A stretch of 64,000 nucleotides of DNA from Eledone cirrhosa (GCA_964016885.1 OZ024746.1:95728001-95792000), one strand, 5' to 3'; shown: positions 15,634 through 64,000, numbered from the stretch's first letter. The notes: a model not told the origin generated them from the letters alone. Translations and numbers: made by a program.

Positions 15634-16376
15634 CTATGGTAACCTACGCTATGGTAACCTACCCTATGGTAACCTACCCTATGGTAACCTACCCTATGGT
15701 AACCTACTCTATGGTAACCTACCCTATGGTAACCTACCCTATGGTAACCTACTCTATGGTAACCTACCCTATGGTAACCTACCCTATGGTAACCTACCCT
15801 ACAGTAACCTACCCTATGGTAACCTACCCTACGGTAACCTACCCTATGGTAACCTACTCTATGGTAACCTACCCTATGGTAACCTACCCTATGGTAACCT
15901 ACCCTACAGTAACCTACCCTATGGAAACCTACCCTACGGTAACCTACCCTACAGTAACCTACCCTATGGTAACCTACCCTATGGTAACCTACCCTACAGT
16001 AACCTACCCTATGGTAACCTACCCTACGGTAACCTACCCTATGGTAACCTACCCTACGGTAACCTACCCTATGGTAACCTACCCTACAGTAACCTACCCT
16101 ATGGTAACCTACCCTATGGTAACCTACCCTATGGTAACCTACCCTATGGTAACCTACCCTACGGTAACCTACCCTATGGTAACCTACCCTATGGTAACCT
16201 ACTCTATGGTAACCTGCCCTATGGTAACCTACCCTATGGTAACCAACCCTATAGTAACCTACCCTATGGTAACCTACCCTATGGAAACCTACTCTATGGT
16301 AACCTGCCCTATGGTAACCTACCCTATGGTAACCAACCCTATAGTAACCTACCCTATGGTAACCGACCCTATGGTA
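15634..16376. repeat. 15-bp minisatellite (atggtaacctaccct), ~49 copies
   Basis: Seen directly; it explains the MVTYP ORF. Confidence 0.95.
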
Positions 16377-25829: not shown

Positions 25830-26429
25830 CCGTTTAACATCTATCTTCCACGCTAGCATGGGTTTAGACGGGAATTGTCCCACTTGAGGCAAGATTGGTC
25901 GTCTCGCTCGTATGGTGGGTTTTCTACAGCTGGATGCCCTTCCTAACACCAACCACGTTTACAGACACTGGTCATTTGCAGCTAAAATGAAGCCCTCACT
26001 CTCAGCCTTATTATTATTGTTAATATAATTATTATAAAGGGCGGTGGATTGGCAGTATCGGTAGAGGGTTGGACGCCAAGCTTTTGTAGCAAAGAGTTAC
26101 GGCCCTTTATGATCTGAGTTCAAATCCCGCCGAGGTTATCTTTGCCTTTCATCCTTACGGGGTTGATAAAATAAAGTACCAGTAATACACTGGGACAATT
26201 GCTGGCCGTGTGCCAAAAGTAGAAACAATTATTGTTAGGGCGGTGGATTGGCAGTATCGGCAGAGCATCAGACACCATGCTTTGCAGCATAAAGTTATGG
26301 CCTTTTATGTTCTGAGTTCAAATCCCGATGAGGTGAACTTTGCCTTTCATCCTTACGGGGTCGATAAAATAAAGTACCAGTAATGCACTGGGTAATTGCT
26401 GGCCTTGTGCCAAAAGTAGCAACAATTAT

Positions 26430-37041: not shown

Positions 37042-37089
37042 ATCATTAAAACGTGGTTTTGACAATTTCAAGACATTAAACAATGACAG
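37042..37089 (+). CDS. Candidate upstream exon carrying the start codon (ATG ACA G, phase 1) of the giant gene
   Basis: catttttgcag acceptor at 37040-41, ATG at 37083, consensus donor CAG|GTAAGT. Splicing to 44572 gives MTGLKPNLVIILVVYSVTFKPLIIQA, which resembles a signal peptide. Confidence 0.55.
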
Positions 37090-39132: not shown

Positions 39133-40328
39133 TTAGCCAAAACCAGCTCTAGTTCAATGAAATAAAACCACCTATTTTAACCCTTTAGTTACAAATCCAG
39201 CCAAAACCAGCTCTGGTTCAATGCAATAAAACCACCTATTTTAACCCTTTAGTTACAAATCCAGCCAAAACCAGCTCTGGTTCAATGAAATAAAACCACC
39301 TATTTTAACCCTTTAGTTATAAATCCAGCCCAAACCAGCTCTGGTTCAATGAAATAAAACCACCTATTTTAACCCTTTAGTTACAAATCCAGCCAAAACC
39401 AGCTCTGGTTCAATGAAATAAAACCACCTATTTTAACCCTTTAGTTACAAATCCAGCCAAAACCAGCTCTGGTTCAATGTAATAAAACCACCTATTTTAA
39501 CCCTTTAGTTACAAATCCAGCCAAAACCAGCTCTGGTTCAATGCAATAAAACCACCTATTTTAACCCTTTAGTTACAAATCCAGCCAAAACCAGCTCTGG
39601 TTCAATGAAATAAAACCACCTATTTTAACCCTTTAGTTACAAATCCAGCCAAAACCAGCTCTGGTTCAATGTAATAAAACCACCTATTTTAACCCTTTAG
39701 TTACAAATCCAGCCAAAACCAGCTCTGGTTCAATGCAATAAAACCACCTATTTTAACCCTTTAGTTACAAATCCAGCCAAAACCAGCTCTGGTTCAATGA
39801 AATAAAACCACCTATTTTAACCCTTTAGTTATAAATCCAGCCCAAACCAGCTCTGGTTCAATGAAATAAAACCACCTATTTTAACCCTTTAGTTACAAAT
39901 CCAGCCAAAACCAGCTCTGGTTCAATGAAATAAAACCACCTATTTTAACCCTTTAGTTACAAATCCAGCCAAAACCAGCTCTGGTTCAATGTAATAAAAC
40001 CACCTATTTTAACCCTTTAGTTACAAATCCAGCCAAAACCAGCTCTGGTTCAATGTAATAAAACCACCTATTTTAACCCTTTAGTTACAAATCCAGCCAA
40101 AACCAGCTCTGGTTCAATGTAATAAAACCACCTATTTTAACCCTTTAGTTACAAATCCAGCCAAAACCAGCTCTGGTTCAATGAAATAAAACCACCTATT
40201 TTAACCCTTTAGTTACAAATCCAGCCAAAACCAGCTCTGGTTCAATGAAATAAAACCACCTATTTTAACCCTTTAGTTACAAATCCAGCCAAAACCAGCT
40301 CTGGTTCAATGAAATAAAACCACCCATT
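39133..40328. repeat. 64-bp satellite (~18 units) made of the left end of MITE family B
   Basis: Unit ttaaccctttagttacaaatccagccaaaaccagctctggttcaatgaaataaaaccacctatt; the last unit runs on into a full MITE ending at 40501. Confidence 0.95.
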
Positions 40329-41134
40329 TTAAAGGTTTCCAATTTAAATTAAAATCTTCGAACATAATTTTATTTAAGAACCTTACATTAAGTTACTATC
40401 TTAAAAATGAATTTAATAATTTTAGTAAACCCCTCAAAATTCTTCAATAATTAATTGAAATAGAGTGTATTTTATTAGGAATGTAGTCATGAAAGGGTTA
40501 ATGTTAACCCTTTAGTACCAACCTGGCCAAAACCTGTTCTGATTCTATGAAATAAAACAACCCATTTTAAAGGTTTCCAGTTTAATTAAAAATCTTCCAA
40601 CATAATTTTATATAAGAACCTTACTTTAAGTTACTATATTAGTAATGAAATTCTTCATTAATTAATTGAAATAGTGTATTTCATTAGAAATAGTGTATTT
40701 CATGAAAGGGTTAAAAAATGTGTAGTGAAGTTTGTAAATTTCATTTTATCAGTTTAAGTTACAGTTATGTTTTTTATTTTATGAATGTGATGCACCACAT
40801 TAGCAAAACATTACAGGATGTTAAGAAATAATACTACACATTTTCGCAACAATCTATTCATTAGTAAAGACATTGTAAACATTTGAATTGACAAACCCAT
40901 TGTTAAATATTTTCTGCCACATCATTATAGGATGTTAAGAGTTATTATAAAATAGTTACATTTAAAAAAAAATATTTGTAAGAAGCAAATAATTCCATTA
41001 ATGATTTGCTTTTATATAAAAAAAATATTAATTGCATTAAATAAATACAGTAGCATCATATTTTTTTTACACGTCCTTATAAATATTGTTTGCTTTCATG
41101 TGAAAAGCTTTTCTTTAATACAATTCAAACAACA

Positions 41135-41183
41135 ATGATACTGGAACATGTGGCCATAGGAAACACCAATCACTCTATAAAAG
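41135..41183 (+). CDS. Alternative candidate first coding exon (MILEHVAIGNTNHSIK-G, phase 1)
   Basis: ATG at 41135, 16 codons plus 1 nt, donor AAG|GTGAGT. Phase matches the 44572 acceptor. TATAAAT at ~41078. Confidence 0.45.
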
Positions 41184-44571: not shown

Positions 44572-47500
44572 GTCTGAAGCCAAATTTGGTGATTATCTTA
44601 GTAGTCTATTCTGTAACCTTCAAGCCATTAATAATCCAAGCAAGTAAAAACCAATATATTATTGAGTATTGGACTAAAAAAGCTGAAAAACAAATGGAAA
44701 TCATTACAAATATGCCAACACACTACAAACCCCTTTATGACATTAAACATATTAAGACAAATAAACTTTTAGATGAACAGAATTTACAGAAAAAGTTGAG
44801 AAGCATAATAGGCCCAAGAAAACTTAAGCTAACTACTAATTTCGAATTCCAAATTTTTTTTAATGAATCTGTGATTACATTTGAAATATTTAGTTATAAA
44901 CACAGATTTCATGAGACTCATATTGTATATATCAACCATTCTAGGGATTTAGTGACCATCAGACCAAATTTAACATTAATCAACAAAAATCACAAATTTT
45001 ATAAAAAAAGGAAAATTAAAGCGATTAAATTAAAGCCCATTGAAAAATTATATCATTATAATAGCTCAAAATTTATTCTTGATATCATACAAAGAAACCA
45101 TCTACATCTTAATAATTCTATAATAAGTAGCTTTTCTAATAGCACAAAAGTAAAGGTAGTTTATTTATTGGTAATTAAGGATAACTTAGGAGATCTCCTT
45201 TTAAATAATACATTTGAAAAACAGACCTTTAATATTTGTTTTCTTTCACATTATAATTTTAAAATCTGTGATAGATATAACCTTAAACAATTGGGAGGGA
45301 AACATTCAACTGTAAATACTAAAATATGGGTTCTTATAGAAAATGCTTCCATGCATATTTCAGAAATTGCATGGTACTTCCTTAAATATCAAGGGTTAAA
45401 CTGTTTTGTAAATTATGTTTATTTAGTCAATTACAATTTTCTATTTAAAAAGCCTAACAGTAAAACAATTCATTTTATAATTATTTGTAAAATTAACTCT
45501 CAAAATAGTACTTTTTCATCAACAGCATTTGATGATAGCGTTAAAGATGAAATAGTTTATCAAAATCTTAGTTCTTCATTGGGTTCCTCTGTGATAGTAA
45601 ACCATAATACAAGTGAAGCAGACCTCATTGGTGAGAAATCTGAAAAACAACTCCAAAATATTAACCCACTAATTAAAGTTTGTGTGTTAAAATCAAATAT
45701 AACAATTTTATATTTTAAAAGTCTTTACTCCAAACATAAAACAATTTCTCCTAGAATATTATCAATATTTTGCATTTCTATAACAAAAGCCCGAAGTAAC
45801 TCTTCAACCCCCAAAAATGTAAATTGTGAATCTAGTTTGAAGAATTTTCAAAGCAAAATCATTTATGAACCCAAAACTGCTGTTCCTCACCTACCCTACA
45901 TGCTTTCATCTAATTTATTTCATTTTGATATTCAAACCCAGTCTCTATTTTTTGTTAAGTCTACATCTTCCATGATTTTTACTCAATTAAATTTTGTTGA
46001 AACAATTACTTTGATTCCAAGCAACAGTCTATTTATAACAGAATCTGTCTTACAAATGCTCAACAACACAAATAATATAAAGTCATTTGACAAAAATATA
46101 ACACAAGCAAAAAATTACAAACTTTTAACTTCTAGAATCAAACGAGATATTAGTTTTGGAAATAGAAAAAGGCTACATTTAAAAAAGAATGATGATGATA
46201 TATCATATTTAAAGAAACGAATAAAAAGATTTAAAATCCAACCACCAAAAAAATTTACAAAACAAAGAATAATTTTAAACCAAAAATTATATGATGAAGC
46301 TGATACAGAGGAACTGGAAAATAAATGCTCACAAGAAAGAGAAAAGGAGGAGGAATCAGATGATAGGCGTAAAAATATATCTGAAATGTTTGATAAATTT
46401 AATTCAGACCAGAGAGAATATTTTGAAGAAAATAAGCAAAGAAAAAAAAAATTTTTTCCATGGAAAAGAAAAAAAATACAGAAATTTGTAAAGTCTAAGA
46501 AAAAAGTTTCTAGACTATTTGGCTCAAACAAAGTAAATAAAATAGAATTATCTTTACACAACACAGCAGTTACAAATGGGAATCAAGACAACCAATCAAT
46601 TGCAATTTCTCTGGTTTGTATTCATGAAGCCAATTTTATAACATATGGAAATAAGATACCAGTGACATTAAACTGTTCTTCTCCTGGTAAGGTTGCTCCC
46701 AAACCTGATGATATAATAGTTTATTTGTATTGCACCCCTAAAATAAATAGCAATGGTAGTAATGGAGATAAAGTTGATATAGCCTTAAATTGTATTCCTG
46801 GATTGAGTGCTACAACCAACGGCTCCCTCTTACCAGTGAATCTTCACTGTACAAGTGACCTTGATATGCCTTCTTATGAAGACTTTCTTCATATATCTCT
46901 AAATTGTTTACCTATATTAAATTATAACCATTCTGTAAGTGATAAAGCCACCCAACGAATGGTAACTAGTAAAACATTTGAACTTTTCATGACAGGAAAT
47001 AAACTAGGCATATCAAAAGAACACCAGAGAAAACTCTCTGTATCTCTTAAATGTATAACACGGCGAGGTTTTGCAATAGATGGGAAAACTATAGATGTTT
47101 ATGTACATTGTATACCAGGTTACATATCTAGAACTCCCCGTAAGAAACTTGTCATTACAAAATCAAAATTTTCAAGAAAACAAAGAAAGACGTGTCCATA
47201 TCGTAGACTAAAGAAGGGAAGGAGGTTATATATAAAAAGATATTCTTTGAAAGATAAAAGAAGAAAAGTTTTGTTGGTTGGTAAAACCAAGAAAAGGGGA
47301 TCACATTCAAGTGTAGGGCAGCCTAAAATGAAAAGTAGAAAACAGTCCATACAAAAAGGGACAAAACGAAAATATTTAAAAAAATATTTTCCTACTAAAC
47401 CTTGTAAAAAGTTTATGAATAGAATACCTACTGCTCCCAGACCTATTTCATCTACTACACTGAAAATGCTCAAAATATATCAAATTTTGTCTAAAAAAAC

Positions 47501-50500
47501 TGAATCATTCTCACCAGTGGCTACTGTTAATTTGACTAAGAGAAGAACAGATATAAATCTACAACCCACAACACTTTCTATTCCATTGACACATTTAATT
47601 AAAAAACAAAATTATAGTACAACAGAATTGATTCCTTCATTTAAAACATCACAAAATGTAATGAAACACTTTTTGAAATTTACACAAGCATATAAATCAA
47701 CTCCAGTTAGAAAATCATCTTATATGGTGACATCAAAAATTTCGTCAGTCTTTACAAATGTACCAATAGAAATTACTTCTAAATTTAGCTTGGATATTGT
47801 AGATGCCACAAATAAAACTCTAATAACAAGTGCAGGTACAAGATTATTTCATAATATCTCACATAAAGAAGGAACAACATTTTCTAATTTGTTTCTTAGA
47901 ATCCAATCTGAGTCCCTTCAATATAACCAAAGTAAAAGTATTCCTTTAAAAGGGTTGAGTTCCTTAGAAATAAAAACTTTTCTGTCAAAACTGATACCCT
48001 ACTCCACAACAACCATGAATTCATCATTTACATTTAAAATGCATTTATTAGGACAACTTCCGACATTTAGAAGTACTGAAAATACATCTAAAACACCGGA
48101 AGTATACCAAACTACACCTATCCAATGGAGATTTTCAAGGAAGCAAAACAAATCAGTAGACAATTTGTTTCAAAGTTTATCCTTTACACCGAATCAGTCA
48201 TCCATATCCAAAATATATTTGAAGCAAACTACGGAACAAAAAGCTGTTAGCAAACTAATAACATATGACATACTTTCAAAATCAAATAAGACAAAATTAT
48301 TTGGCAGAGAACATGGGGTGATAATAACATCCCAATATACATTCTCTGAAAAAATAAAAACACAAGCAAAATATTGGCTAATATCAAAATACTCATTAAG
48401 TACAAAATATGTTTATACATTTTTAACACCAAGCACCTTTTCTGATCAGATGACTACACCATTTACCAGAGGAAAATTATATAAAGTACAGTTTATACCA
48501 ACTGCATGGTCTACTAAGAAAAGTACACTCCAGCCTGTTTTTCTCAGCATAGATGGTACAAAGAAGCCAACAGATATTCCAGATCAACATAAACTGCAGT
48601 TTACTTTATCTGTAACGTTACAGAGTTTTGACAAAGCTTTCACTCCAAGAGATAAATTACTTACTTCTGCATCATCAAACATATCTTTGATTACAGTAAA
48701 GTTTGAAAGATCAACTTTAAAAGAACAGCTGATACAGATTACCAAAATTGATGATAAGGATGATGATGTTGATGATGACAAATCTGATAAAACTGATTTA
48801 AAATCTAAAACTATTCACGGAGACTCAAAAATGTTCTTAGCTTTGTCTGGGGTAGAATTTGACAAGAAACATTTAAGACAAGAAAGGAAGTTAATATTTC
48901 AAGTAACAGTATTTCCTGACTATACTCTACAAGAAGAAGAAATCGTAACCCCTGCCATGTTCCAGTCAACTGAAGAGACTTTTTACCATGAAGTCACTTT
49001 TATAAGTCAAACATATATGTATGGCAGAGAGCTGTATGAGGGAAAAGAAACAGATTCATTAATAGAACTGTCAGTCCCCTTAACTATTTTACAAGAGATG
49101 TCAATTATGCCCCCTAAAGGCAGAGATTACATTGACTCTGATGTTGATACAGAAGGGACCGAGTTAATCACCCAACAAATGATACTAAAACATGAAACTG
49201 AAGTGGAGGGTAAACATGTATTTGAAATTATGAAAATCTCAAGAGAGGGTAAAATAAAAATGGAAGAACAATCAAGTGATCCTTTCAGTTCCACAACAAT
49301 AACATTTGAGAAAACTTTGACTATGTTTACAAAGGATTTGTCAACTGGACCAATGGCACATATAGAGTCTGCAAGATTGACAGAGATTATCATTCCATAT
49401 AGAGATTTGACAGAAACAACCATTCCAAGAAATACTACAACAGAATTGTTGGGTGTAAAGGAATTACAAATCGATACTTTTACAAGAGTAACCCCAATAT
49501 TTAGAATTAGTGTGAGTGCTAGTACACTAAATATGACATGGGGTTTACAAGACAGTTCTAGAATGGTTGAACAAATTATAAGAAATTTGAGTAAAACGGA
49601 GACAATTCAAAAATATAATGTGACAGGATTATCAAGTCATGATTTAAGTTCAATATTTAGATTTATTACAACAAATAATGAATCCATGATAAAATTAATG
49701 ACTGAAAGAATTCATTCAGAGTTAACAACAGCAATGACACTGAAAACAGAAGTAGATGTAGGTCTGCAGAGAAGCATGATAGTGAAATATATAGATAAAG
49801 TGACTTCATTAGTTGTAAAATATGAAGATACTACATCGAGGCAGCAATTTTCCAAACCAGTACTACAAGAAATGTTTTTATTGAGCACAAGTGTTAGTCT
49901 GATTATTACTAAAACTCTAGGAGAAACTACAAGATATGATATCTTATCTTTGATGAAGACACCCTATCAGAAAACTAGAATTATAAAAACACAGTTGATT
50001 TCAGACGTTTTAACCAAAGAATTCTCCAGAAAAACAGATAATGGAAGTAAAACTACCAAAATTGCACTAGACAGAATACCACAAATAGACACAGAAGAAT
50101 TAGTTGTGACTAAAGAAGCTATTAAGGTTCTAGAAAAAGACACAGAGGGATTAGTTGTGACTAAAGAAGTTATTAGGGTTCCAAAAATAGACACAGAGGG
50201 ATTAGTAGTGACTGAGGAGGCTATTAGGGCTCCACAAATAGACACAGAGGCTATGAGGGTTCCACAAATAGACATAGAGGCTATGAGGGTTCCACAAATA
50301 GATACAGAGGGATTAGTAGTGACTGAGGAGGGTATTAGGGCTCCACAAATAGACCTAGACGGATTAGTTGTGACTGAGGAGGCTATTAGGGTTCCAGAAA
50401 TAGACACAGAGAGATTAGTAGTGACTGAGGAGGCTATTAGGGTTCCAGAAATAGACACAGAGAGATTAGTAGTGACTGAGGAGGCTATTAGGGTTCCAGA

Positions 50501-53500
50501 AATAGACACAGAGGCTATGAGGGTTCCAGAAATAGACATAGAGGGATTAGTTGTGACTGAGGAAGCTATTAGGGCTCCACAAATAGACATAGAGGAGATT
50601 AGGGTTCCACAAATAGACATAGAGGGATTAGTTGTGACTAAAGAAGTTATTAGGGTTCCAAAAATAGACACAGAGGGATTAGTAGTGACTGAGGAGGCTA
50701 CTAGGGCTCCACAAATAGATATAGAGGATATAAAGGTTCCACAAATAGACATAGAGAGATTAGTAGTGACTATTAGGATTCCAGAAATAGACACGGAGGG
50801 ATTAGTAGTGACTATTAGGGTTCCAGAAATAGACACAGAGGCTATTAGGGTTCCACAAATAGATGCAGCGGAATTAGTAGTGACTAAGGAGGGTATTAGA
50901 GTTCCAGAAATAGACATAGAGGGATTAGTAGTGACTGAGGAAGTTATTAGGGTTCCACAAATAGACATAGAGGGTATCAGGGTTGCACAAATAGACATAG
51001 AGGGATTAGTTGTGACTATTAGGGTTCCAGAAATAGACACACAAGGATTAGTTGTGACTAAAGAAGTTATTAGGGTTCGAAAAATAGACACAGAGGGATT
51101 AGTAGTGACTGAGGAGGCTACTAGGGCTCCACAAATAGACACAGAGGCTATGAGGGTTGCACAAATAGACATAGAGAGATTAGTAGTGACTATTAGGGTT
51201 CCAATAATAGAAACAGAGGAATTAGTTGTGACCAAGGATAGTATTAGCATTCAAAGACGAAGACAAATATCACATACTGTAAATGTTATAATTTCTATTC
51301 CGCAAGTACCTGAAGATAGATCAACCATTTCTCAAGATGTTGCTAGAGTTCTAGAAATATATATGAAAGGATCATCTGTTGCTAGAGATGTGACAATTTC
51401 ACAAAGACACACACAAGGATCAACAACTGATAGAGGCATTGTTGTTAGTAGAGAGACTGTGACAGTTGCACAAATATACACAGAGGGATCAGTTTCAAGT
51501 AGTTATGTCATTGTTGCTAAGGACGCCATTACAGTCTCACAAATACATATAACTCAACCAGTTTCTACTAGTTCTGTTGCTGTTGTTGCTAAGGACACCA
51601 TTACAGTTCCACACATACACATAGCTCAACCAGTTTCCACTAGTTCTGTTGCTGTTGTTGCTAAGGACACCATTACAGTTCCACACATACACATAGCTCA
51701 ACCAGTTTCCACTAGTTCTGTTGCTGTTGTTGCTAAGGACACCATTACAGTTCCACACATACACATAGCTCAACCAGTTTCTACTAGTTCTGTTGCTGTT
51801 GTTGCTAAGGACACCATTACAGTTCCACACATACACATAGCTCAACCAGTTTCCACTAGTTCTGTTGCTGTTGTTGCTAAGGACACCATTACAGTTCCAC
51901 ACATACACATAGCTCAACCAGTTTCTACTAGTTCTGTTGCTGTTGTTGCTAAGAACACCATTACAGTTCCACACATACACATAGCTCAACCAGTTTCTAC
52001 TAGTTCTGTTGCTGTTGTTGCTAAGGACACCATTACAGTTCCACATATACACATAGCTCAACCAGTTTCCACTAGTTCTGTTGCTGTTGTTGCTAAGGAC
52101 ACCATTACAGTTCCACATATACACATAGCTCAACCAGTTTCCACTAGTTCTGTTGCTGTTGTTGCTAAGGACACCATTACAGTTCCACAAATACACATAG
52201 CTCAACCAGTTTCCACTAGTTCTGTTGCTGTTGTTGCTAAGGACACCATTACAGTTCCACAAATACACATAGCTCAACCAGTTTCCACTAGTTCTGTTGC
52301 TGTTGTTGCTAAGGACACCATTACAGTTCCACAAATACACATAGCTCAACCAGTTTCCACTAGTTCTGTTGCTGTTGTTGCTAAGGACACCATTACAGTT
52401 CCACAAATACACATAGCTCAACCAGTTTCCACTAGTTCTGTTGCTGTTGTTGCTAAGGACACCATTACAGTTCCACACATACACATAGCTCAACCAGTTT
52501 CTACTAGTTCTGTTGCTGTTGTTGCTAAGGACACCATTACAGTTCCACATATACACATAGCTCAACCAGTTTCTACTAGTTCTGTTGCTGTTGTTGCTAA
52601 GGACACCATTACAGTTCCACATATACACATAGCTCAACCAGTTTCTACTAGTTCTGTTGCTGTTGTTGCTAAGGACACCATTACAGTTCCACAAATACAC
52701 ATAACTCAACCAGTTTCCACTAGTTCTGTTGCTGTTGTTGCTAAGGATGCCATTACAGTCCTACAAATACACATAGCTCAACCAGTTTCCACTAGTTCTG
52801 TTGCTGTTGTTGCTAAGGACACCATTACAGTTCCACAAATACACATAGCTCAACTAGTTTCCACTAGTTCTGTTGCTGTTGTTGCTAAGGACACCATTAC
52901 AGTTCCACAAATACACATAGCTCAACCAGTTTCTACTAGTTCTGTTGCTGTTGTTGCTAAGGACACCATTACAGTTCCACAAATACACATAGCTCAACCA
53001 GTTTCCACTAGTTCTGTTGCTGTTGTTGCTAAGGACGCCATTACAGTTCCACAAATACACATAGCTCAACCAGTTTCTACTAGTTCTGTTGCTGTTGTTG
53101 CTAAGGACGCCATTACAGTTCCACAAATACACATAGCTCAACCAGTTTCTACTAGTTCTGTTGCTGTTGTTGCTAGGGACACCATTACAGTTCCACACAT
53201 ACACATAGCTCAACCAGTTTCTACTAGTTCTGTTGCTGTTGTTGCTAGGGACACCATTACAGTTCCACATATACACATAGCTCAACCAGTTTCTACTAGT
53301 TCTGTTGCTGTTGTTGCTAGGGACACCATTACATTTCCACAAATACAAACAGATAGATTAACTGTTGCTAGGGAGGCCAACATTTCGCAACTACAAACAA
53401 AGGAGGGATCAGCTGCTGGTATTAGGGATGATATTACAACTACACAAATACACATAGATACATTTCACATTATTAAGGATGGTGTTGCTAGGGAGATTGT

Positions 53501-56500
53501 TACTAGGAATGGTGTTGCTAGGGAGATTGTTACTGGGGATGGCATTACTAGGGATAGTGTTGCTGGGGAGATTGTTACTGGGGATGGTGTTGCTAGGGAG
53601 ATTGTTACGGCTACACAAATACACACAAATAAAGTTCTTGTTGCTAGGGATATTGTTACTAGTGATACTGTTGCTAAGAAGATTGTTACAGCTACACAAG
53701 TACATCTTTCTACTAAAGGTTTTGTTATCTGGGATGGAGTTACATTTCAACCAATTGACACAAAAGGATCTACTGTTTTACCAAGTGATGTAGAGGGATC
53801 ACTTGTTACTATAGATGCTGTGACAGTTCCTCAAATTAGTCAAGATAAATTGGTTATTGGTAGGTTTACTCTTCAAATACCCCAGATAAAAATGTACACC
53901 TCATTTGTTACTCAGATATCTGTTGCCTTTAGACAAACTGATATAGATACTACATCTCTTACAACTAGGGATTCTGCCATTATTTCAGAAATAGTTAGTG
54001 TTGGATTACTTGATTCTAGATATACTGTGGGATTAATTGTTTTGGGAGATTCTGTTAGTGTTTCTCAAATTACTGTTTTACCAAGTTATACAGAAAGCTC
54101 AGTTGTTAGTATAAAGGCTGTGACAGTTCCACAAATTAGTCAAGATGAATTGTTTATTGGTAGGTTTACTGTTCAAATGCCCCAGGTAAACATGTCTACC
54201 TCATTGGTTACACAGGTAACTGTTATCTTTAGACAAACTGATATAGCTATTACTGAACCAGAAACAACTAAAAGTGAATCTCTAGTTTCTAAATATATTC
54301 TTTCAGAGACGCAGCTTTATGGAGCACTTCTTGTAACTAGGGATGATGGTGTTGTAACTAGGGATGGTGTTGTAACTAGGGATGATGGTGTTGTAACTAG
54401 GGATGTTGTTGTAACTAGGGATGATGGTGTTGTAACTAGGGATGATGGTGTTGTAACTAGGGATGTTGTTGTAACTAGGGATGATGGTGTTGTAACTAGG
54501 GATGATGGTGTTGTAACTAGGGATGGTGTTGTAACTAGGGATGTTGTTGTAACTAGGGATGATGGTGTTGTAACTAGAGATGTTGTTGTAACTAGGGATG
54601 GTGTTGTAATTAGGGATGGTGTTGTAACTAGGGATGTTCTTGTAACTAGGGATGTTCTTGTAACTAGGGATGGTGTTGTAACTAGGGATGTTCTTGTAAC
54701 TAGGGATGATGGTGTTGTAACTATGGATGTTGTTGTAACTAGGGATGATGGTGTTGTAACTAGGGATGTTGTTGTAACTAGGGATGTTGTTGTAACTAGG
54801 GATGATGGTGTTGTAACTAGGGATGTTGTTGTAACTAGGGATGATGGTGTTGTAACTAGGGATGGTGTTGTAACTAGGGATGTTGTTGTAACTAGGGATG
54901 ATGGTGTTGTAACTAGAGATGATGGTGTTGTAACTAGGGATGGTGTTGTAACTAGGGATGTTGTTGTAACTAGGGATGATGGTGTTGTAACTAGGGATGT
55001 TCTTGTAACTAGGGATGGTGTTGTAACTAGGGATGATGGTGTTGTAACTAGGGATGTTGTTGTAACTAGGGATGATGGTGTTGTAATTAGGGATGGTGTT
55101 GTAACTAGGGATGATGGTGTTGTAACTAGGGATGTTGTTGTAACTAGGGATGGTGTTGTAACTAGGGATGATGGTGTTGTAACTAGGGATGTTGTTGTAA
55201 CTAGGGATGATGGTGTTGTAATTAGGGATGGTGTTGTAACTAGGGATGTTCTTGTAACTAGGGATGGTGTTGTAACTAGGGATGATGGTGTTGTAACCAG
55301 GGATGTTCTTGTAACTAGGGATGATGGTGTTGTAACTATGGATGTTGTTGTAACTAGGGATGTTGTTGTAACTAGGGATGATGGTGTTGTAACTAGGGAT
55401 GTTGTTGTAACTAGGGATGTTGTTGTAACTAGGGATGGTGTTGTAACTAGGGATTATGGTGTTGTAATTAGGGATGGTGTTGTAACTAGGGATGTTCTTG
55501 TAACTAGGGATGGTGTTGTAACTAGGGATGATGGTGTTGTAATTAGGGATGGTGTTGTAACTAGGGATGTTCTTGTAACTAGGGATGGTGTTGTAACTAG
55601 GGATGATGGTGTTGTAACTAAGGATGTTGTTGTAACTAGGGATGGTGTTGTAACTAGGGATGATGGTGTTGTAACTAGGGATGATGGTGTTGTAACTAGG
55701 GATGTTGTAACTAAGGATGTTGCTGTTGTAAGTCAGGATGATGGTATTGTAACTAGGGGTGTTGGTGTTGTAACTAAGGACATTGTTGTTGTAACTAGGG
55801 ATGGTGTTGTAACTAGGGGTGTTGGTGTTGTAACTAGGGACATTGTTGTTGTAACTAGGGATCATGTTGTAACTAGGGGTGTTGGTGTTGTAACTAGGGA
55901 CATTGTTGTTGTAACTAGGGGTGTTACTAACGTTTCACAGAGAGTCTTTAGTGGATCAACTATAATTCAGGGCAATGTTACATCAGCAGAAGTTGACATA
56001 TCTCTTATAAGCAGGGTTTCTTATATCCCCTACACTAATAGGTTAGATTTTACTATGGATGTAGATGTACCACATATGAGAAGGGATAGAGTTAACATTA
56101 CCATTCCTTATATTGCCACAGAGAAATCATCTATTGGTAAATATATTTCTGTTCCTTGGTATAATATTACAACTATTAGTGACGATGGTGTAACAGTCCC
56201 TCAGATAGTTGAACATAGATCTGTTGTCACCTCTTTACATACTTTTTCAACACCCACAACAGAAAAAGAAAGTTGGAAGACATCTTTACTAGACCCAGTA
56301 GTTTTATACTCTACAATAGTTTTAACAACATCACTTACACTAGGAGATTTCTATACAAATACAAAACAAATTGATACAGATAAAAGTAAGCTGACCGTTA
56401 TACCAATTCTATTAACAAGTCCCAGTGAATTACTTGGTATAACTATTAGTCCAATGAGCTTATCGATAACAACAGAAAAATTTACAGAGACAAACACTGT

Positions 56501-59500
56501 TACTTCTCTAAATGTACTCACTGAAATTATTAGTAGCACTGAAACTGATGATGTATATATTTTAGCTGAGACAACAGAAATGACAATGGAGACCACTGAT
56601 CCTTTATATTCAATGTTAGAAATGTCTGACTATGAAAGTTTTCATAAAGAAAAGTTATCTGAACATTTTAAGCAAATGTCACAGTTAACTGACAGGGATA
56701 TGGAGATCTTAACACCTATGTCTTTAATGGCACCATGGTATCATTCTGCAGATCATCTTAGCTCAGTTTGGGATTCTAGCCAACAAAGATATATGACAAG
56801 CATTGGAATTTCTTCTATTCAAGAATATTTAGGAAAAACACCAGAAACCACAGAAATTTCAGAAGATTTCTCTACAAGAACGGAAAAATTAATACCCTAC
56901 ACTGATTTTATATCTAGTTTTAGGGTACCATCATTTTCTATGGATGTCACTGTAGAGAGTATAAAACCCCCAAAATTTGATGGTATTCGTGAAATAAAAT
57001 CTTACATGACAGATATTACTACATCTTCTACCATTGATATTGCCCATGGAAGATTACAAGGAAATAAAAGTAGATATAGTGAAGAATTAATTCATTTTAC
57101 ACATGCTTCACAAAATGTAAGTAAATGTTCTGAAAGGTTAACTCCTTCTATAAGCAACCTGGTGAATGCAAGCAGATTTACTGAGGGGTTAATTCCTGTT
57201 GTTTCTTCAAGAAGCAGTCAAAGATATGTTTTAATTCCTTCTTTGAGTTCAGAAATGTTAAACTTAACCAGAACTAAATACATTCCTTTAACTACTGAAA
57301 TGGAATACACATTAGACCCAACAGAGCTGTCTGAAGACCACGAAGTCGAGGGGACAACAGATGTAACATTTATATTGGAAAATACGCTACTGTTTTTACC
57401 ATTTGCAAGTCCACCAGTGCTAAATGAATTTATGAGTGAAACCCTTACCCAAGAAACTTCAACAGATGTAGGAGATACAAGTTCAATTCCAACAACTACA
57501 AACATTCATTTAGATAAAGAATTAGAAAGCACACAAATCCAAGCATTATGGAAATCTGACATTTTAAAAAAGACTTCTGATAAGTCAAAATATGATAAAG
57601 ATGATAAAATTATTTCAAGAATCATACACACTGAAAATCCATTTGAAATATATTTTCCACTCTTAAAGTTAGAAAGCCAAGAAACTATTTTAAAAAGTAA
57701 AACATCTTCAGAAGTTCTGCCCATGTTTCCATCAACACAGGCAAGTATATTGTATCAGGATTTGAAATATGAATTACAAACTGAAACAAATGTGTATGAC
57801 TTCTCAAGTAAATTTTATAAATACAGAACTGGTTTAACAATAAATCAGCTAACAGAAAAGCCATCTAGGGATATAATGTTATCAAAACCTGTTAAGTCAT
57901 TAGATGTAAGAACAGATGGTGTTACTAAAAGTCTGATTAAAAGTAAAATGAAAACAATATTGGATCACACAAGACCAACCAGAAGATATTTTAGGAAAAG
58001 AGATATAAGTGAAACTTTTTATCCATATCAAACAAGTACACCAGGCAGCTTTATTGATATTATAGATATTTATGATAATGTCATAGTGAAGAAATTAAAA
58101 GTTAGGGGTTATGTAACAGAAGATCATGGTGTTATAATCGAAAATGTTACGTTTGTTTATGTTAAAGCATCTAAAATGTCTACACACAAAGAACATATTT
58201 TAAACAGTTCTGTTTTAGATCTACAATTACATGAAAGCACATACAGAAAAATAAAGTTTGCTAAACATGATAGAAGTGAATTATTAAAGATATTTACAGA
58301 AATATCAATGATGCCAGTAAATATATCTAAAATTGTATTAGACTTTACACTATCAATGTCAACACCAAAATTAGCACAAATATTAAATAACTCTACTTTA
58401 GGGGTGAGCTATATTGAAACAAAGCAACTAATGCTAGTTTCCCACACACCCTTAATCCCAGTAATCACACCTGAACATCAAACAGAAGGATATTCAAAGG
58501 AAATGATATTACCTTCTTTGGTTACACAAGCAAGATTTACTAATATAACAAATGCTACTGCATCACAGAGTCAAACACGGGTTTCTGTTAAAGAAAGAAG
58601 AGAAGGAATGACATCCAAAGCATCAGTTTATAGGATAATAAAAACCAGTTCAGCAATAGAAACAAAGATAAAGAAATCTGCATTAGAAGTACCAATAGCA
58701 ACACAAGAACCAATGAATAGAACTGCCAGTCCTAAAATGAGCAGTGAAATTAATTTAAGCATTAGGACAAACATTTCTCATTTATCAACACAACAAACTA
58801 AAACAATCCAAGATAGAATAACATTTGATTTATTGGAAAAACTTCACACAACTTTATTTACTCTAGCTGTTATTTCAAACGATACATCAAAAGAGTATTT
58901 TATTATTACACCGGCTGGTAGTGACATGCAATCATTTATAGCTACAGCAGACACGATACTAGACCAAACATCTTTAGCTACAGCAGACACGATACCAGAC
59001 CAAACAACTATAGCTACACCAGATACAATACCAGGCCAAACATCTACAGCTATACCAGACACGATACCAGACCAAACATCTATAGCTACACCAGACACAA
59101 TACCAGGCCAAACATCTATAGCTATACCAGATACAATACCAGACCAAACATCTATAGCTATACCAGACACAATACCAGACCAAACATCTATAGCTATACC
59201 AGACACAATACCAGGCCAAACATCTTTAGCTATACCAGACACAATACCAGACCAAACATCTATAGCTACACCAGACACAATACCAGACCAAACATCTATA
59301 GCTGCAGCAGACACGATACCAGACCAAACATCTATAGCTACACCAGACACAATACCAGACCAAACATCTATAGCTGCAGCAGACACAATACCAGACCAAA
59401 CATCTATAGCTACACCAGACACAATACCAGGCCAAACATCTATAGCTGCAGCAGACACGATACCAGACCAAACATCTTTAGCTACAGCAGACACAATACC

Positions 59501-62500
59501 AGACCAAACATCTATAGCTACACCAGACACAATACCAGGCCAAACATCTATAGCTGCAGCAGACACGATACCAGACCAAACATCTTTAGCTACACCAGAC
59601 ACAATACCAGGCCAAACATCTATAGCTATACCAGACACAATACCAGGCCAAACATCTATAGCTACACCAGATACAATACCAGACCAAACATCTATAGCTA
59701 CACCAGACACAATACCAGGCCAAACATCTTTAGCTATACCAGACACAATACCAGACCAAACATCTATAGCTACAGCAGACACAATACCAGACCAAACATC
59801 TATAGCTACAGCAGACACAATACCAGACCAAACATCTATAGCTACACCAGACAAGATACCAGATCAAACATCTATAGCTACAGCAGACACAATACCAGAC
59901 CAAAGATCTATAGCTACACCAGGCAAGATACCAGATCAAACATCTTTAGCTACAGCAGACACAATACCAGATCAAACATCTGTAGCTATACCAGACACGA
60001 TACCAGACCAAAGATCTTTAGCTACAGTAGACACAATACCAGACCAAACATCTATAGCTACACCAGATACAATACCAGATCAAAAATCTATAGCTACAGC
60101 AGACACAATACCAGATCAAACATCTGTAGCTACACCAGACACGATACCAGACCAAACATCTTTAGCTACACTAGACACACTACCAGACCAAACATCTATA
60201 GCTACACCAGACATGATACCAGACCAAACATCTGTAGCTACACTAGACACAATACCAGACCAAACATCTATAGCTATACCAGACATAATACCAGATCAAA
60301 CATCTTTAGCTATACTAGACACAATACCAGACCAAACATCATTTGAAACGTTTCTTTTTAAAAAATCTTCAAGTGAAAGCAAAATATTCACAACTATGAA
60401 ACCTAAAATAAAGCAGGATCTGTTTCAAGTAAGTGTACAGAACACAACTATGTTACCCACTGCTCAAAACATATCACAAGTAACTGAATACATGATTAAA
60501 CAAGCCATAATAATAACTAATGCCACAACTAAATTAGTTGAAATATCAAGCATAGTATTCCCTACAATAGCTAGTATCACTACATCTGAAATAGTACATG
60601 TTAACAATATATCAGATATTATATTGTCTGTAGCTACAGTTACTGTAAAGCAGATGTATAATACAGCAACTGAAATATCAAAGAAACCTCTGGTTTTTCC
60701 TCATAGTTTAGACTATCTAGATTCCCCTTTAACTACAAGTACAACTACATTATTTAGAAATTTAAGTGTGTTCCAAACAAAAGATGAAAGTAGTTTAAAA
60801 CATTTTATTCAACTGAGTATTAGAGATCAGTTAAATTTACAGACAAAAGAAACAAGGAAAACATCAAGGAAAGCTCAAAGTGAAGCAACAGAACAATTGA
60901 CATCTGAAGTTCCCCTGAAAGTTAGTCATGTTTCCATGACAATGCCACCAACTGAAACAAGTGAGAAAATAAATACATCATTAATAAGTGCAACTGTACT
61001 ACCTTTAATGAAGGAAATAGATAAAACTAAAACTCAACGAACAATTTCAAAGAAAAGTACAATTCTGTTTGAGGCATTGCACTTTGATAGAGGTCATAAT
61101 ATTTCAACATTAGTTTTAGAAGAAGATGAAGACATATCTCACTCCACGTTATTTTATATCAGAGAAAACATCACTCTACCAAAACAACCGTTTATTGCTG
61201 TAGATGTTTTACTTACTAAAGAAACTGGAGACGAGCTGCCATATTACCAAACTGATAGTTACTGGGATATTTCCATACACCGTTCTTTAACAACTAAAGT
61301 ACCCAGTAAAGTCTCAACAAAGAGAGGAACACAAATACAAATAACATCACAGGATCTCTCAACACAAGCCTGGTTATTTAATGCAACAATATCTTTTCCC
61401 CATGAACTGAATATTACAACACCAAAAGTTCTAAAAATTACAACAATATCTGACAAAGCAATTCACTCTCAGGACAAACAAGTAACCAAAACAAAATTTC
61501 CAGTTATCCGAATAACATTTGTGACATCACATTACAGTAACTTTAGTGAAACAAAGTCTCCATTAATTCATCCAAACAAGACTATAATTGAAATGGCCAA
61601 ACCTAGTAAGGTAGAGGCCATCACAACATATTCAGGTATAAATAATATAACAAAGTCATTAATAAGAACTGAAATAGATGGTTATTTCCTGTCATCATCA
61701 ACATCTAAAACAATTCAGGATTCACAGCTAGTCAGTGCACCATTGATGGAAATCACAAAAGCTAAAACACCAGACATTTTAATAGCAAGCAACATAACTA
61801 ATTTATTAACTCATTTAACCAAACCTAAAACTGATGCGTTGTTAAAGGATAGTACAGAAATCAAACCAACATCCTCCATAACTATAACAGAGATATCATC
61901 AAATTTCATCCAGGATATATTGCTATACAGTAAAGGATCATATAAAATGATTTCATCACATAGACCAAGACATATTTATCAAACATCAAGTACAGTTAAT
62001 GAAACATTAATTCTAGTTTCAACTATACCAATGAAAATGTACATAAGAAAATCTCTAGGTTTCGCTCACAACAGAAGTTTGTCTTTCTATGTTTCAGAAT
62101 ATTTTACCTCAGAATCCAGCACAAAAGAATCCATATTAGAAAGTACAACTTTTGTATGGCATAAATCATTAATAACTACTTTGGGTTTAACTGATATATC
62201 AGTAAAACCTGAAAAATCAATAATATACATCAACACCACCATTTCCCCAATTATACTGACCTCTGTAATAAAACCATTTAGTGGTTGGTATGCCTTAGAA
62301 AGATCATTTGCTTCAAGATATAAATGGGAACAAACTTATAAGGCAGAGAAATCAACCCTTCATTTAAAGACCTTGAAATCCACTACAACTTCTTCATTAT
62401 TAAAACTAACTCTTATGAGTGTACCTAAAATTGTGGATGATTTTAATAGACAACTAAATTTATCTGATTTTAAAATCCAGATTTCAACACTGCCTTTTAC

Positions 62501-64000
62501 GTCAACACACACAAGACTCACTCTTAACACTGGTTATAGTACTGAACATTTTAATTTTACATTACTCCTGCACCCCTTAAAAACTAAAACTGGAGTAGAT
62601 CTTAAACATCTTTTCTCAAATCTTACGTCTATGACAAATTTAGTTAGTTTAGTTTACTCAAAGGTTTCAACTTTAAACTCGTCAATAGATTTTTGGCAGA
62701 AAAGCATTTCTATTGAGGTTACACCAAAACTACATGTTTCTTCATTAGTTTCATTGAAACATTATTTTGAGCAAGTAACACAAAGAGCAAAGATAATATC
62801 AAACACATCAGTGGTAATTGTTACAAATGGAACTGAGTCTGAACAAATGGATTCTGTATTAGAAACACAGGGTCTAATGAAAATACAGACAGTAACAGGA
62901 GTGACAAAACAACTAAAAAGAACAAGTTTCGCTGAAATGTCTAAATTAAAATTACATCTTTATACTACAAAATTAATGCACATTTCTCTTCATACATTTT
63001 CAGTTTCTCTTGCTCCTACTAAGTTATTTCTTATTGCTTCTTCTTCATCCAGTAGTCCTTCACTACCAACAAATATTTCTCTGTCTTCAACTGCTACTTC
63101 TACATATAAAGTTACATTTGAACAGAAATTTAATCAAACAGAGCCGACCATAAGATTACTAATAAATCAGTCAACTACTGACATCATATTTCATAATCAA
63201 AACACATCAACAACAGTGAAGCCATTAACAACTATGGAGCCAACTTACAGTGAATCCTATGATATAGTATCCTACTTCAGTAGAGTTAAATTAATCCCAT
63301 TCTTTTCTTTGTCATCAATAGGAGATATTATGTCAACAAATATGGTGTCAATTCAACAAAGTAATAAAACCGAAAGTAAATATTCAAAATCACATTTTAA
63401 ATTACATAATAAAACAACTACAGCTGTGGGATTTATTGAAACTATTACCAACTTTAGTGATAAAAAAAATGTTTCCGAAATTACTCCTATAACAACCATT
63501 CCAGTGAATATATCAACACAAACTTTGCTAACTAATGTAAGTGAATTTTCCATTCCATTCACAACTGATCTTAGTTTTCATTTCAGAACAATCTATCCTA
63601 CAACTATACTATCTTTTCATCAGATTACAAGTACAACTGGCCCACTGAATACAACAGTATCTATTCATTGGACAAAGGAATTAACACTCTTCCAAGAAAT
63701 ATCTATAGTCAGTCAGTCAGGTGTGATTTCTCCTCAAGAGGCGTCTCATCATTTTCTGTTTACTGTATCACCGTCACAAAATATATCAGAATTTACCATT
63801 CTAATGACTGGATCACCTTTTCTTAAAACATTTGACGATATTATGTTTACCCCAGCATCATTTTCGCAGATATCAGAAGGTACCAGCTTTCTAATGGGAC
63901 CATCTGTTGTTGAAACATCAAAAGATGTCCTATTTACTACAACCATACCACAGGTAGTTTCAGAAGGTACCAGCTATCTAATGGAACCATCTCTTGTTGC
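44572..64000 (+). CDS. Giant coding exon (at least 6,475 codons, open at the window end) of a probably secreted, repeat-rich, Thr/Ser/Val/Ile-rich protein
   Basis: Acceptor ttgtgtttctttttcag|gt at 44570-71. Frame with codons from 44574 reads (G)LKPNLVIILVVYSVTFKPLIIQASKNQY... I read it without stops to ~47.5 kb, and spot checks at 48, 50, 52, 54, 56, 59, 62 and 64 kb are in the same frame. The ORF track lists no closed ORF in this frame, as expected if there is no stop. Repeat units are multiples of 3. An in-frame ATG also lies at 44511 (last upstream stop 44484-86). Confidence 0.9.
50085..51245 (+). repeat. Coding tandem array 1: IDTEGLVVTEEAIRVPQ (51-nt unit with 30- and 42-nt variants)
   Basis: Recurrent atagacacagagggattagtagtgactgaggaggctattagggttccacaa; variant lengths keep the frame. 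Confidence 0.9.
51515..53340 (+). repeat. Coding tandem array 2: ~25 x 72 nt, AKDTITVP(Q/H)IHIAQPVSTSSVAVV
   Basis: Near-identical 72-nt units, from aaggacgccattacag at 51519 to 53319. Confidence 0.95.
54330..55925 (+). repeat. Coding tandem array 3: ~80 units of VVTRD(D)G / VVTRDV (18/21 nt)
   Basis: gttgtaactagggat(gat)ggt units; length variants are multiples of 3. Confidence 0.95.
58938..60340 (+). repeat. Coding tandem array 4: ~39 x 36 nt, TSIATPDTIPDQ (mucin-like PTS)
   Basis: acatctatagctacaccagacacaataccagaccaa units. Confidence 0.95.
63786..64000 (+). repeat. Start of coding array 5: 87-nt (29-aa) period, SEGTSFLMGPSVVETSKDVLFTTTIPQVV
   Basis: tcagaa recurs at 63786, 63873 and 63960; truncated by the window end. 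Confidence 0.65.

What the first reader, a model, noticed from the sequence alone, without database searches (positions are those of the whole stretch)
50085..55925. Three beta-prone arrays appear to derive from one proto-repeat
Seen: IDTEGLVVTEEAIRVPQ, AKDTITVPQIHIAQPVSTSSVAVV and VVTRD(D)G share elements (VV[TA][KRE][DE], [TR]VPQI), and the degenerate linkers between them (51250-51515, 53340-53800) carry intermediate forms. These arrays are rich in Val/Ile/Thr with alternating patterning, unlike Pro-rich mucin PTS; array 2 is His-bearing and array 3 alternates Arg and Asp. Inference: a beta-solenoid or amyloid-like fibre segment of a biomaterial protein.
Basis: partly seen in the sequence, partly recalled or inferred. 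Interest (0 to 1): 0.7.

Follow-up and report, generated by a model that had tools for sequence, protein, structure and literature searches.

The report
Nested repeats in giant secreted protein
Three valine-rich repeat blocks in a huge, mucin-like secreted animal protein grew out of one older 17-residue repeat, but they look more like freely drifting sticky spacers than a precisely folded fibre.

Summary
The common origin holds; the fibre reading is weak.

The arrays lie in one + strand frame of at least 6,476 codons (44572 to beyond 64000), probably a giant exon of a secreted glycoprotein. N-glycosylation sequons number 90 against 39.5 expected, and an orthologue is 60% identical downstream.

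Arrays 1 and 2 are homologous at DNA level (31-33 of 42 nt in register, p=0.0002). The linkers keep a 17-codon period. Array 3 shows no direct whole-unit similarity (p=0.78 and 0.12). It is the 6-7-codon core amplified inside one proto-unit.

'Alternating patterning' is not found: arrays 1 and 2 equal shuffles, and array 3 is blockier than chance. Copies diverge at dN/dS near 1. AlphaFold2 folds only the near-perfect array 2, where it is known to over-predict solenoids (PMC11795689). A fourth array has 39 copies here and one in the orthologue.

Best reading: recently expanded, loosely constrained, hydrophobic spacer or sticker blocks in an orphan mucin-like matrix protein, probably of an octopod (recalled, not tested).

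The parts
37042..37089 (+). Candidate first coding exon (48 nt): acceptor AG at 37040-41, ATG at 37083, phase-1 donor. Inferred, no transcript evidence. A second candidate has ATG at 41135 and a donor after 41183.
   Evidence: These are the only two perfect MAG|GTRAGT donors on the + strand of the window, and both follow an in-frame ATG.
44572..64000 (+). Giant coding exon (at least 19.4 kb, open at the window end) after a phase-1 acceptor
   Evidence: No stop in 6,504 codons, against 191-693 stops in the other five frames. The acceptor ranks 2nd of 11 strong ones in a crude scan. Orthologue P0002 is 59.6% identical over 1,883 aligned residues downstream of the arrays.
44586..44642 (+). Signal-peptide-like hydrophobic segment
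   Evidence: Only hydrophobic peak outside array 2 (Kyte-Doolittle 2.78 over 11 aa). No signal-peptide predictor was available.
46134..46145 (+). R-I-K-R proprotein-convertase-type site followed by D-I-S; a second RIKR lies at 46218
   Evidence: Pattern scan; cleavage is inferred.
46590..47140 (+). Cysteine-repeat module: 8 Cys spaced 19, 19, 20, 19, 19, 49, 19, each ending a short hydrophobic strand-like motif
   Evidence: No Pfam hit, no true homologue among 1.84 billion representatives, no Atlas hit.
50031..55991 (+). Whole proto-repeat tract: an old repeat of about 17 codons holding three recent expansions
   Evidence: Hand parse; 17-codon autocorrelation in the linkers; matrix scan.
50085..51257 (+). 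Array 1: 27 acidic units of 17, 10 and 14 aa; the short ones are in-frame deletions of 7 or 3 codons
   Evidence: The 14 17-mers analysed are 86% identical at DNA level; net charge -0.12 per residue; AF2 pLDDT 25-34 for the part modelled.
51258..51515 (+). Linker 1: degenerate units of 15-23 aa, including 23-aa intermediates between the 17-mer and the 24-mer
   Evidence: Top autocorrelation lags 23 and 17 codons, p=0.010; matrix hits.
51516..53315 (+). Array 2: 25 x 24 aa; a 17-mer plus 7 codons; uncharged, hydrophobic, His-bearing, Gly-free
   Evidence: 97% identity; 8% charged, 33% V+I, 25% S+T; AF2 beta-solenoid, with the caveat of PMC11795689.
53316..54314 (+). Linker 2: 13 degenerate units, a 15-nt mini-array (53469-53609) nested in one unit, and a 300-nt-period duplication (53771-53953 / 54071-54253)
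   Evidence: Lag 17 codons z=4.1, p=0.002.
54327..55922 (+). Array 3: about 83 units of 6-7 aa; the core of one proto-unit amplified in place; blocky amphiphile (three hydrophobic, then two or three charged residues)
   Evidence: AF2 pLDDT 26-36 for the first 157 residues.
57981..58010 (+). Dibasic K-R site followed by D-I-S, conserved in the orthologue
58929..60340 (+). Array 4: 39 x 12 aa, Pro/Thr-rich, unrelated to arrays 1-3; one unit in the orthologue
   Evidence: no similarity to the other arrays (p at least 0.32); 457-aa gap in P0002 at this place.

Best explanation
The arrays are nested, recent expansions of one old repeat of about 17 codons, inside the giant exon of an orphan, secreted, mucin-like matrix glycoprotein.

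History (shown by sequence): an old tract of 17-codon units decayed into today's linkers. One unit was re-amplified as array 1, with 7- and 3-codon deletions. A unit lengthened to 23-24 codons was amplified as array 2. The 5-7-codon core was amplified inside single units twice, as the linker-2 mini-array and as array 3. Slippage and unequal crossing-over are the inferred mechanisms.

Protein (inferred): the chain enters the secretory pathway, is N- and O-glycosylated, and is cut at the K-R|D-I-S sites. This releases a middle piece of about 3,950 residues with the Cys module, a basic patch and the tract.

Action (inferred): the tract works as a block copolymer, mostly extended. The acidic array 1 and polyampholyte array 3 act as hydrated spacers. 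The uncharged Val/Ile-rich array 2 is a sticky block that cross-links chains by loose hydrophobic or beta contacts in a mucus, cement or cuticle matrix. Frame, length and hydrophobic character matter; exact residues and a fixed coil geometry do not.
For: Homology and nesting.

Coding and secreted: 6,504 codons without a stop; 90 sequons in 4,026 non-repeat residues against 39.5+-5.4 shuffled, and 72 against 29.8+-4.6 in the orthologue; one hydrophobic segment at the exon start; 59.6% identity to P0002.

Low constraint: 17 of 71 single-base steps among copies are synonymous, 18.4 expected under neutrality; dN/dS about 0.7-1.3 per array; unit lengths vary.

Composition is mildly kept: 3 losses of a hydrophobic residue against 7.9 expected, p=0.037, uncorrected.

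Lability: array 4 has 39 copies here and one in the orthologue, which has three insertions of 82-94 aa of its own.

AF2 finds no fold for array 1, the linkers or array 3. Secreted molluscan proteins with such domains evolve by slippage (PMC4897951, passages), and mucin exonic repeats vary in copy number (PMC9417175, passages).
Against: No transcript, tissue or proteomic evidence. The C-terminus lies outside the window, so a membrane anchor or folded domains are not excluded.

No orthologue covers arrays 1-3, so their recency rests on copy identity and on the analogy with array 4.

The selection tests have little power (7-25 events per array), and very recent copies have had little time to be purged.

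By charge and hydropathy all three arrays fall on the folded side (FoldIndex +0.15, +0.44, +0.23). Single-sequence AF2 fails on many folded orphans, so low pLDDT does not show disorder.

Sequons are not clearly better kept than other Asn in the orthologue (22 of 49 against 6 of 17). Arrays 1 and 3 are not PTS-like (S+T 10% and 15%).
Confidence: 0.55

Rival explanations
1. Array 2, and perhaps the ancestral 17-mer tract, is a true parallel beta-solenoid or cross-beta rod. Twenty-five coils of 24 residues would form a stiff fibre segment of a biomaterial protein.
For: AF2 solenoid with pLDDT 84-94 over the array-2 units. The model resembles beta-helices in general: curli CsgA Z 15.8, rmsd 8.7, 207 aligned; FHA Z 14.1, rmsd 3.6, 185 aligned. 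Unit length is fixed in 25 of 25 copies; only 8% charged, FoldIndex +0.44; 0 hydrophobic losses in array 2 against 1.2 expected. The A/V/T/S/H-between-prolines make-up recalls suckerin M1 (PMC11931252, passages).
Against: AF2 gave confident solenoids for 32 of 78 random perfect repeats, and for permuted mucin 22 (PMC11795689). No alternation above shuffles. Two prolines per unit and six Ser/Thr that could be glycosylated. The degenerate linkers, where the AF2 bias should not act, are not folded. dN/dS is near 1. Foldseek gave no match at E 0.001 or below.
Confidence: 0.2
2. The arrays are functionless passengers. A tolerant, extended exon accepts any in-frame expansion, and the Val-rich make-up is inherited from the seed unit.
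For: dN/dS near 1 and no excess of conservative changes (mean BLOSUM -0.04 against -0.24, z=0.9). Array 4 is dispensable in the orthologue. The absence of stops among copies is not itself significant (2.1 expected, P=0.13).
Against: The arrays add about 1,500 residues. The old tract kept its period and Val-rich core through deep divergence. Hydrophobic losses are fewer than expected (p=0.037).
Confidence: 0.17
3. The exon is the extracellular stalk of a membrane-bound receptor or adhesion protein whose folded domains lie beyond the window; the arrays set the stalk length.
For: Phase-1 acceptor, sequon excess and convertase sites fit. The C-terminus is unseen.
Against: P0002 runs about 1,200 aa further without a Pfam domain and has one Cys. 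No Pfam domain was found in 140 + strand upstream frames (two weak hits at E 0.008-0.01). This rival is compatible with the best explanation for the arrays themselves.
Confidence: 0.06
4. Array 1 is homologous to AHNAK/periaxin central repeats, or the frame is not expressed at all.
For: Array 1 matches a fish PDZ-domain protein with AHNAK-like repeats (P0004, 25% identity, E 4e-8; the AHNAK label is recalled). It beats column-permuted arrays (197 against 50+-22, p=0.002).
Against: It was the best of about 8,000 candidates preselected from 5.8 billion sequences, and the signal is one short motif repeated. No PDZ domain was found, and the protein looks secreted. Non-expression is contradicted by the conserved open frame.
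Confidence: 0.02

Closest known systems
[quoted passage not shown]
   Same: Secreted, lineage-restricted, modular repeats that expand and contract by slippage; usually taken as disordered matrix formers.
   Different: Far larger (over 6,400 aa in one exon), Val/Ile/Thr-rich rather than Gly/Ala-rich, with nested expansions of one proto-unit. No link to a mineralised tissue is shown.
Lineage-specific mucins formed by exonic repeat gain (PMC9417175, passages read)
   Same: S+T above 20% overall (22.6%), exonic tandem repeats, copy number differing between species (array 4), secretory signals.
   Different: Arrays 1 and 3 are S/T- and Pro-poor and highly charged. No vWD, SEA or EGF domain was found in the part seen. 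O-glycosylation is untested.
Suckerins, M1 module (PMC11931252, passages read)
   Same: Array 2 is made of Ala/Val/Thr/Ser/His stretches bounded by prolines.
   Different: No Gly/Tyr/Leu M2 module (0% Gly in array 2). The Pro-bounded stretches are 6 and 16 residues, not 11. No sequence hit to suckerins.
Beta-solenoids such as curli CsgA or filamentous haemagglutinin
   Same: The AF2 model of array 2 has this general fold.
   Different: Only array 2 is modelled so. Identity is 13% or less for the top rows, and the prediction falls in a known AF2 blind spot.
Articulins (PMC2120578, abstract read) and AHNAK repeats (PMC8833689, passages read)
   Same: Val/Ile-, Pro- and charge-rich repeats with proposed or measured beta structure; array 1 has a similar make-up.
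   Different: Both are intracellular. Articulins have a 12-residue VPVP--V-V-V- unit with in-register alternating charges; AHNAK has an N-terminal PDZ domain. Neither feature is seen here.

Membership tests
Mucin (criteria of PMC9417175) | More than 20% Ser+Thr | tested here: met
   22.6% over the frame in the window, 26.0% in P0002.
Mucin (criteria of PMC9417175) | Exonic tandem repeats | tested here: met
   Four arrays.
Mucin (criteria of PMC9417175) | P/T/S clustered in the repeats | tested here: inconclusive
   Array 2 has 25% S+T and 7.8% P; array 4 has 29% and 13%; array 1 has 10% and 5.6%; array 3 has 15% and 0%. No run of 100-aa windows reaches 40% S+T with 5% P (this threshold is recalled).
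Mucin (criteria of PMC9417175) | More than 4% predicted O-glycosylation sites | not testable with these tools
   No O-glycosylation predictor was available.
Mucin (criteria of PMC9417175) | Signal peptide / secretion | tested here: inconclusive
   Hydrophobic segment at 44586 and 2.3-fold sequon excess; the start exon is only a candidate.
Gel-forming or membrane mucin families | vWD, cystine-knot, SEA or EGF domains | tested here: inconclusive
   None in the frame, in 273 upstream frames of 45 aa or more, or in P0002; the gene's 3' end is unseen.
Beta-solenoid | Constant coil length (arrays 1 and 3) | tested here: not met
   10/14/17 aa and 6/7 aa in irregular order.
Beta-solenoid | Constant coil length (array 2) | tested here: met
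   25 of 25 units are 24 aa.
Beta-solenoid | Alternating inward hydrophobic pattern | tested here: not met
   Moment at 170 degrees no higher than shuffles in arrays 1 and 2, lower in array 3.
Beta-solenoid | Reliable structural model or structure | tested here: inconclusive
   Confident AF2 model for array 2 only, in a class where AF2 over-predicts (PMC11795689).
Functional amyloid | Cross-beta fibrils, ThT binding | not testable with these tools
   Needs experiment; no amyloid predictor was available.
Suckerin | Pro-flanked A/V/T/S/H M1 module of about 11 aa | tested here: inconclusive
   Composition similar in array 2, lengths 6 and 16.
Suckerin | Gly/Tyr/Leu-rich M2 module | tested here: not met
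   0% Gly in array 2; no Tyr in its units.
AHNAK/periaxin | N-terminal PDZ domain | tested here: inconclusive
   No PDZ hit in the frame or upstream frames; short exons or exons outside the window would be missed.
AHNAK/periaxin | Intracellular protein | tested here: not met
   Sequon excess and signal-like segment point to secretion; indirect.
Articulin | 12-residue VPVP--V-V-V- repeat | tested here: not met
   Unit lists contain no such repeat.

The most novel reading that the evidence does not exclude
An undescribed cephalopod biomaterial precursor. Convertases release a piece of about 3,950 residues in which array 2 folds or stacks as a Gly-free, His-bearing beta-solenoid or cross-beta rod. 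It is flanked by an acidic block and an Arg/Asp block that drive condensation, and capped by a new 19-residue cysteine-repeat module. All three blocks were evolved from one 17-codon seed, giving a natural triblock fibre or cement unrelated to suckerins and beak proteins.
Probability: 0.2. Interest if true: 0.72.

Novelty: new variant of a known kind. Interest (0 to 1): 0.38.

Why it matters
The tract is a clear record of how one repeat seed yields three chemically different protein blocks (acidic, hydrophobic with His, polyampholyte) by re-amplifying at different scales, with the intermediates still in place. That is useful for studying how repeat proteins evolve, though the process itself is known.

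The host protein is an orphan of about 0.7 MDa or more (at 110 Da per residue) with no family match. If it proved to be an octopod egg cement, mucus or cuticle component with a beta-rich block, it would add a new biomaterial design. PMC8976471 (passages read) describes egg cement and slime as oviducal-gland mucoproteins; no link to this gene is shown.

Tried and rejected
- Pfam on the frame: BH4 on array 1, Bflower_3 on array 3 and Drf_FH1 on array 4 pass their cut-offs, but are rejected as repeat artefacts. The meaningless antisense frame of array 2 also passes three cut-offs.
- Pfam on 140 + and 133 - strand upstream frames of 45 aa or more (low-complexity frames filtered out first): no credible domain.
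- Homologue searches: residues 1-1500 among long proteins, 0 of 1,788 candidates. Residues 1480-6476 among shorter proteins, 2 of 8,000: P0002 and a weak hit, P0003, not used. Residues 1150-2330, 1 of 7,999: P0004, judged convergence.
- phmmer of the Cys region against 1.84 billion representatives: 1 hit, P0001, a nematode tandem-repeat translation, rejected.
- ESM Atlas: nothing for the Cys module, only sub-0.9 leads for array 2.
- PDB sequence search with array 3: 0 hits. Foldseek with the array-2 model: 0 at E 0.001 or below.
- Complex prediction of three copies of six array-2 units: no verdict.
- Rfam and ARAGORN: nothing.
- Direct array 1-3 and 2-3 alignments were not significant.
- A permuted-unit AF2 control could not be run; published base rates were used instead.
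- The source and species of P0002 remain unknown.
- No eukaryotic genome collection was available, and the metagenome and viral contig collections stayed unchecked. Orthologous DNA across arrays 1-3 and copy-number variation are therefore untested.
- Literature searches (judged from listings) showed no description of this protein. The library lacks most subscription papers, and no supplementary files were read; annotation tables there could name the gene.


Full report
CONTEXT. The window is AT-rich animal DNA with microsatellites and dispersed repeats. The dispersed repeats near 26040-26430 look like octopus SINEs to me; this is recalled, and no call confirmed the taxon. The finding lies in one + strand frame from 44487 to the window end: 6,504 codons without a stop, against 191-693 stops in the other frames. 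A strong acceptor ends at 44571 (2nd of 11 in a crude scan), so the frame is probably a phase-1 exon of at least 19.4 kb. It opens with the only hydrophobic segment outside array 2. A 48-nt exon candidate at 37042-37089 would supply the ATG; this is inferred. Four donor-like sites but no strong acceptor lie inside the frame.

IS IT A REAL GENE? P0002, an unnamed 3,386-aa protein, aligns from frame residue 4043 onward at 59.6% identity over 1,883 residues and continues about 1,200 residues past the window. N-glycosylation sequons are 2.3-fold enriched here (90 against 39.5+-5.4) and in P0002 (72 against 29.8+-4.6). Individual sequons are not clearly better conserved than other Asn (22 of 49 against 6 of 17). 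Two K-R|D-I-S sites flank the tract, and the second is conserved. No family was found. So this is an orphan secreted glycoprotein whose C-terminus is unseen.

THE OBSERVATION. Array 1 has 27 units (15 x 17, 8 x 10, 4 x 14 aa), array 2 has 25 x 24 aa, and array 3 has about 83 units of 6-7 aa. Arrays 1 and 2 share 31-33 of 42 nt ungapped and in codon register (three array-1 units compared with one array-2 unit). Against codon-shuffled units the DNA score is 35 versus 14.0+-2.6, above all 5,000 shuffles. A matrix from 12 distinct array-1 windows scores 24 positions in array 2, 3 in linker 1 and 6 in linker 2 above the best of 3,860 non-repeat positions, and none in array 4. nhmmer agrees for array 2 (22 hits, 11 at E below 0.01) but finds the linkers only at E near 0.05. 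Independently of any motif, linker 2 has its top autocorrelation at 17 codons (p=0.002) and linker 1 at 23 and 17 (p=0.010); two control segments give p=0.10 and 0.50.

ARRAY 3. Whole-unit comparison with arrays 1 and 2 fails (p=0.78, 0.12), as does the 14-codon matrix inside it (0 of 517). The link is to the core only. A 7-codon matrix from 15 windows of arrays 1, 2 and linker 1 gives the 6-mer 19.3 bits, against a maximum of 9.5 in 3,859 non-repeat windows. The real codon order is the best possible (6 of 720 permutations); the 7-mer is weaker (0.039); array 4 is negative. The core was chosen after seeing the motif. The reverse matrix is enriched in array 1 (31 against 12.5) and linker 2 (21 against 12.6), but not in array 2 (p=0.12) or linker 1 (p=0.54). 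Array 3 matches the linker-2 mini-array (p=0.004), and its last unit runs out as a full proto-unit (14.4 bits at 55908). Arg is AGG in 23 of 30, 12 of 16 and 75 of 77 codons in array 1, linker 2 and array 3, against 15% elsewhere. A hand parse shows the mini-array and array 3 each nested in one unit. I take common origin as near certain for arrays 1-2 and likely for array 3.

THE STRUCTURAL CLAIM. Val/Ile/Thr richness is real (40-52%). Alternation is not: arrays 1 and 2 equal shuffles, and array 3 is blocky. AF2 without an alignment left the modelled part of array 1 and most of linker 1 under pLDDT 50, folded array 2 as a solenoid at 84-94, and gave nothing for linker 2 plus 157 residues of array 3 (mean 29.9). 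The array-2 model resembles many beta-helices without a standout match (top Z 15.8, rmsd 8.7, 207 aligned; rank 50 at Z 10.3; no Foldseek match). PMC11795689 (parts 1-2 of 6 and passages read) reports confident AF2 solenoids for 32 of 78 random perfect repeats and doubts the one for mucin 22. Array 2 is 97% perfect, so its model carries little weight. On the other side, single-sequence failure does not show disorder, and all three arrays lie on the folded side by charge and hydropathy. Array 2 in particular is too hydrophobic to be a plain random coil unless glycosylated.

SELECTION AND LABILITY. Among copies of arrays 1-3 and the linker-2 duplication, 17 of 71 single-base steps are synonymous, with 18.4 expected; per-array dN/dS is about 0.7-1.3. 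Left out of these counts were the 14-mers and last unit of array 1, the first unit of array 2, the ragged ends of array 3, and multi-base steps. Losses of hydrophobic residues are fewer than expected (3 against 7.9, p=0.037, uncorrected), while BLOSUM conservativeness is not significant. Power is low. Array 4 has 39 copies here and one in P0002, which has three 82-94-aa insertions of its own. The exon therefore gains and loses long blocks freely. No orthologue covers arrays 1-3.

MECHANISM. Shown: frame, units, homology, nesting, composition, near-neutral divergence, lability of array 4. Inferred: splicing, secretion, glycosylation, cleavage, and action as a block copolymer in which arrays 1 and 3 are charged spacers and array 2 a hydrophobic sticker (0.55). 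Rivals: a true solenoid or cross-beta rod in array 2 (0.2), functionless passengers (0.17), a receptor stalk (0.06), AHNAK homology or no expression (0.02).

COMPARISON. It works like molluscan repetitive low-complexity secreted proteins (PMC4897951, passages) and lineage-specific mucins (PMC9417175, passages). It meets the S+T and repeat criteria of the latter, but arrays 1 and 3 are not PTS. It is not a suckerin (no Gly/Tyr module; PMC11931252, passages) or an articulin (PMC2120578, abstract). The AHNAK-like match of array 1 (PMC8833689, passages) is best read as convergence on one short motif. Searches listed no description of this protein.

VERDICT. The fibre inference is unsupported for two arrays and undecided for the third. 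New variant of a known kind; interest 0.38; novel case probability 0.2, interest 0.72.

Noticed in passing
window 46590-47140: Eight cysteines in a 19-residue repeat, each closing a hydrophobic strand-like motif. No Pfam, Atlas or sequence homologue; possibly a small new disulfide-linked beta module. Not folded.
   Followed up: partly
window 47130-47430: Very basic patch, 41% Lys+Arg over 100 residues, directly after the Cys module; could bind acidic polysaccharide or array 1.
   Followed up: no
window 46134-46154 and 57981-58010: Two basic sites both followed by D-I-S; the second is conserved in P0002. They would release a piece of about 3,950 residues holding arrays 1-3.
   Followed up: partly
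window 58929-60340: Fourth array, 39 x 12 aa, unrelated to the proto-repeat; a single unit in the orthologue.
   Followed up: yes
window 53771-53953 and 54071-54253: Duplication at a 300-nt period inside linker 2, 85% identical over 60 codons, with mostly amino-acid-changing differences.
   Followed up: yes
window 37042-37089 and 41135-41183: The only two perfect splice donors on the + strand, each after an in-frame ATG and in phase with the giant exon; candidates for the start exon.
   Followed up: partly
P0002 residues 2200-3386: The orthologue continues about 1,200 aa past the window without a Pfam domain and ends in Thr-rich repeats with 16 sequons in 236 residues.
   Followed up: partly
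window 11815-12659, 15633-16376, 39135-40332: Upstream minisatellites (88 bp x 9.6, 15 bp x 49.6, 64 bp x 18.7). The 15-bp one is open in several frames; probably non-coding.
   Followed up: no
window 24683-24966, 26038-26430, 26700-26900: Tandemly duplicated SINE-like pieces and a LINE-like fragment on the - strand; the labels and the octopus attribution are recalled, not tested.
   Followed up: partly
window 50085-51257: The 10- and 14-residue units of array 1 lack 7 and 3 codons of the 17-mer between short direct micro-repeats (seen by eye), as expected for slippage.
   Followed up: no
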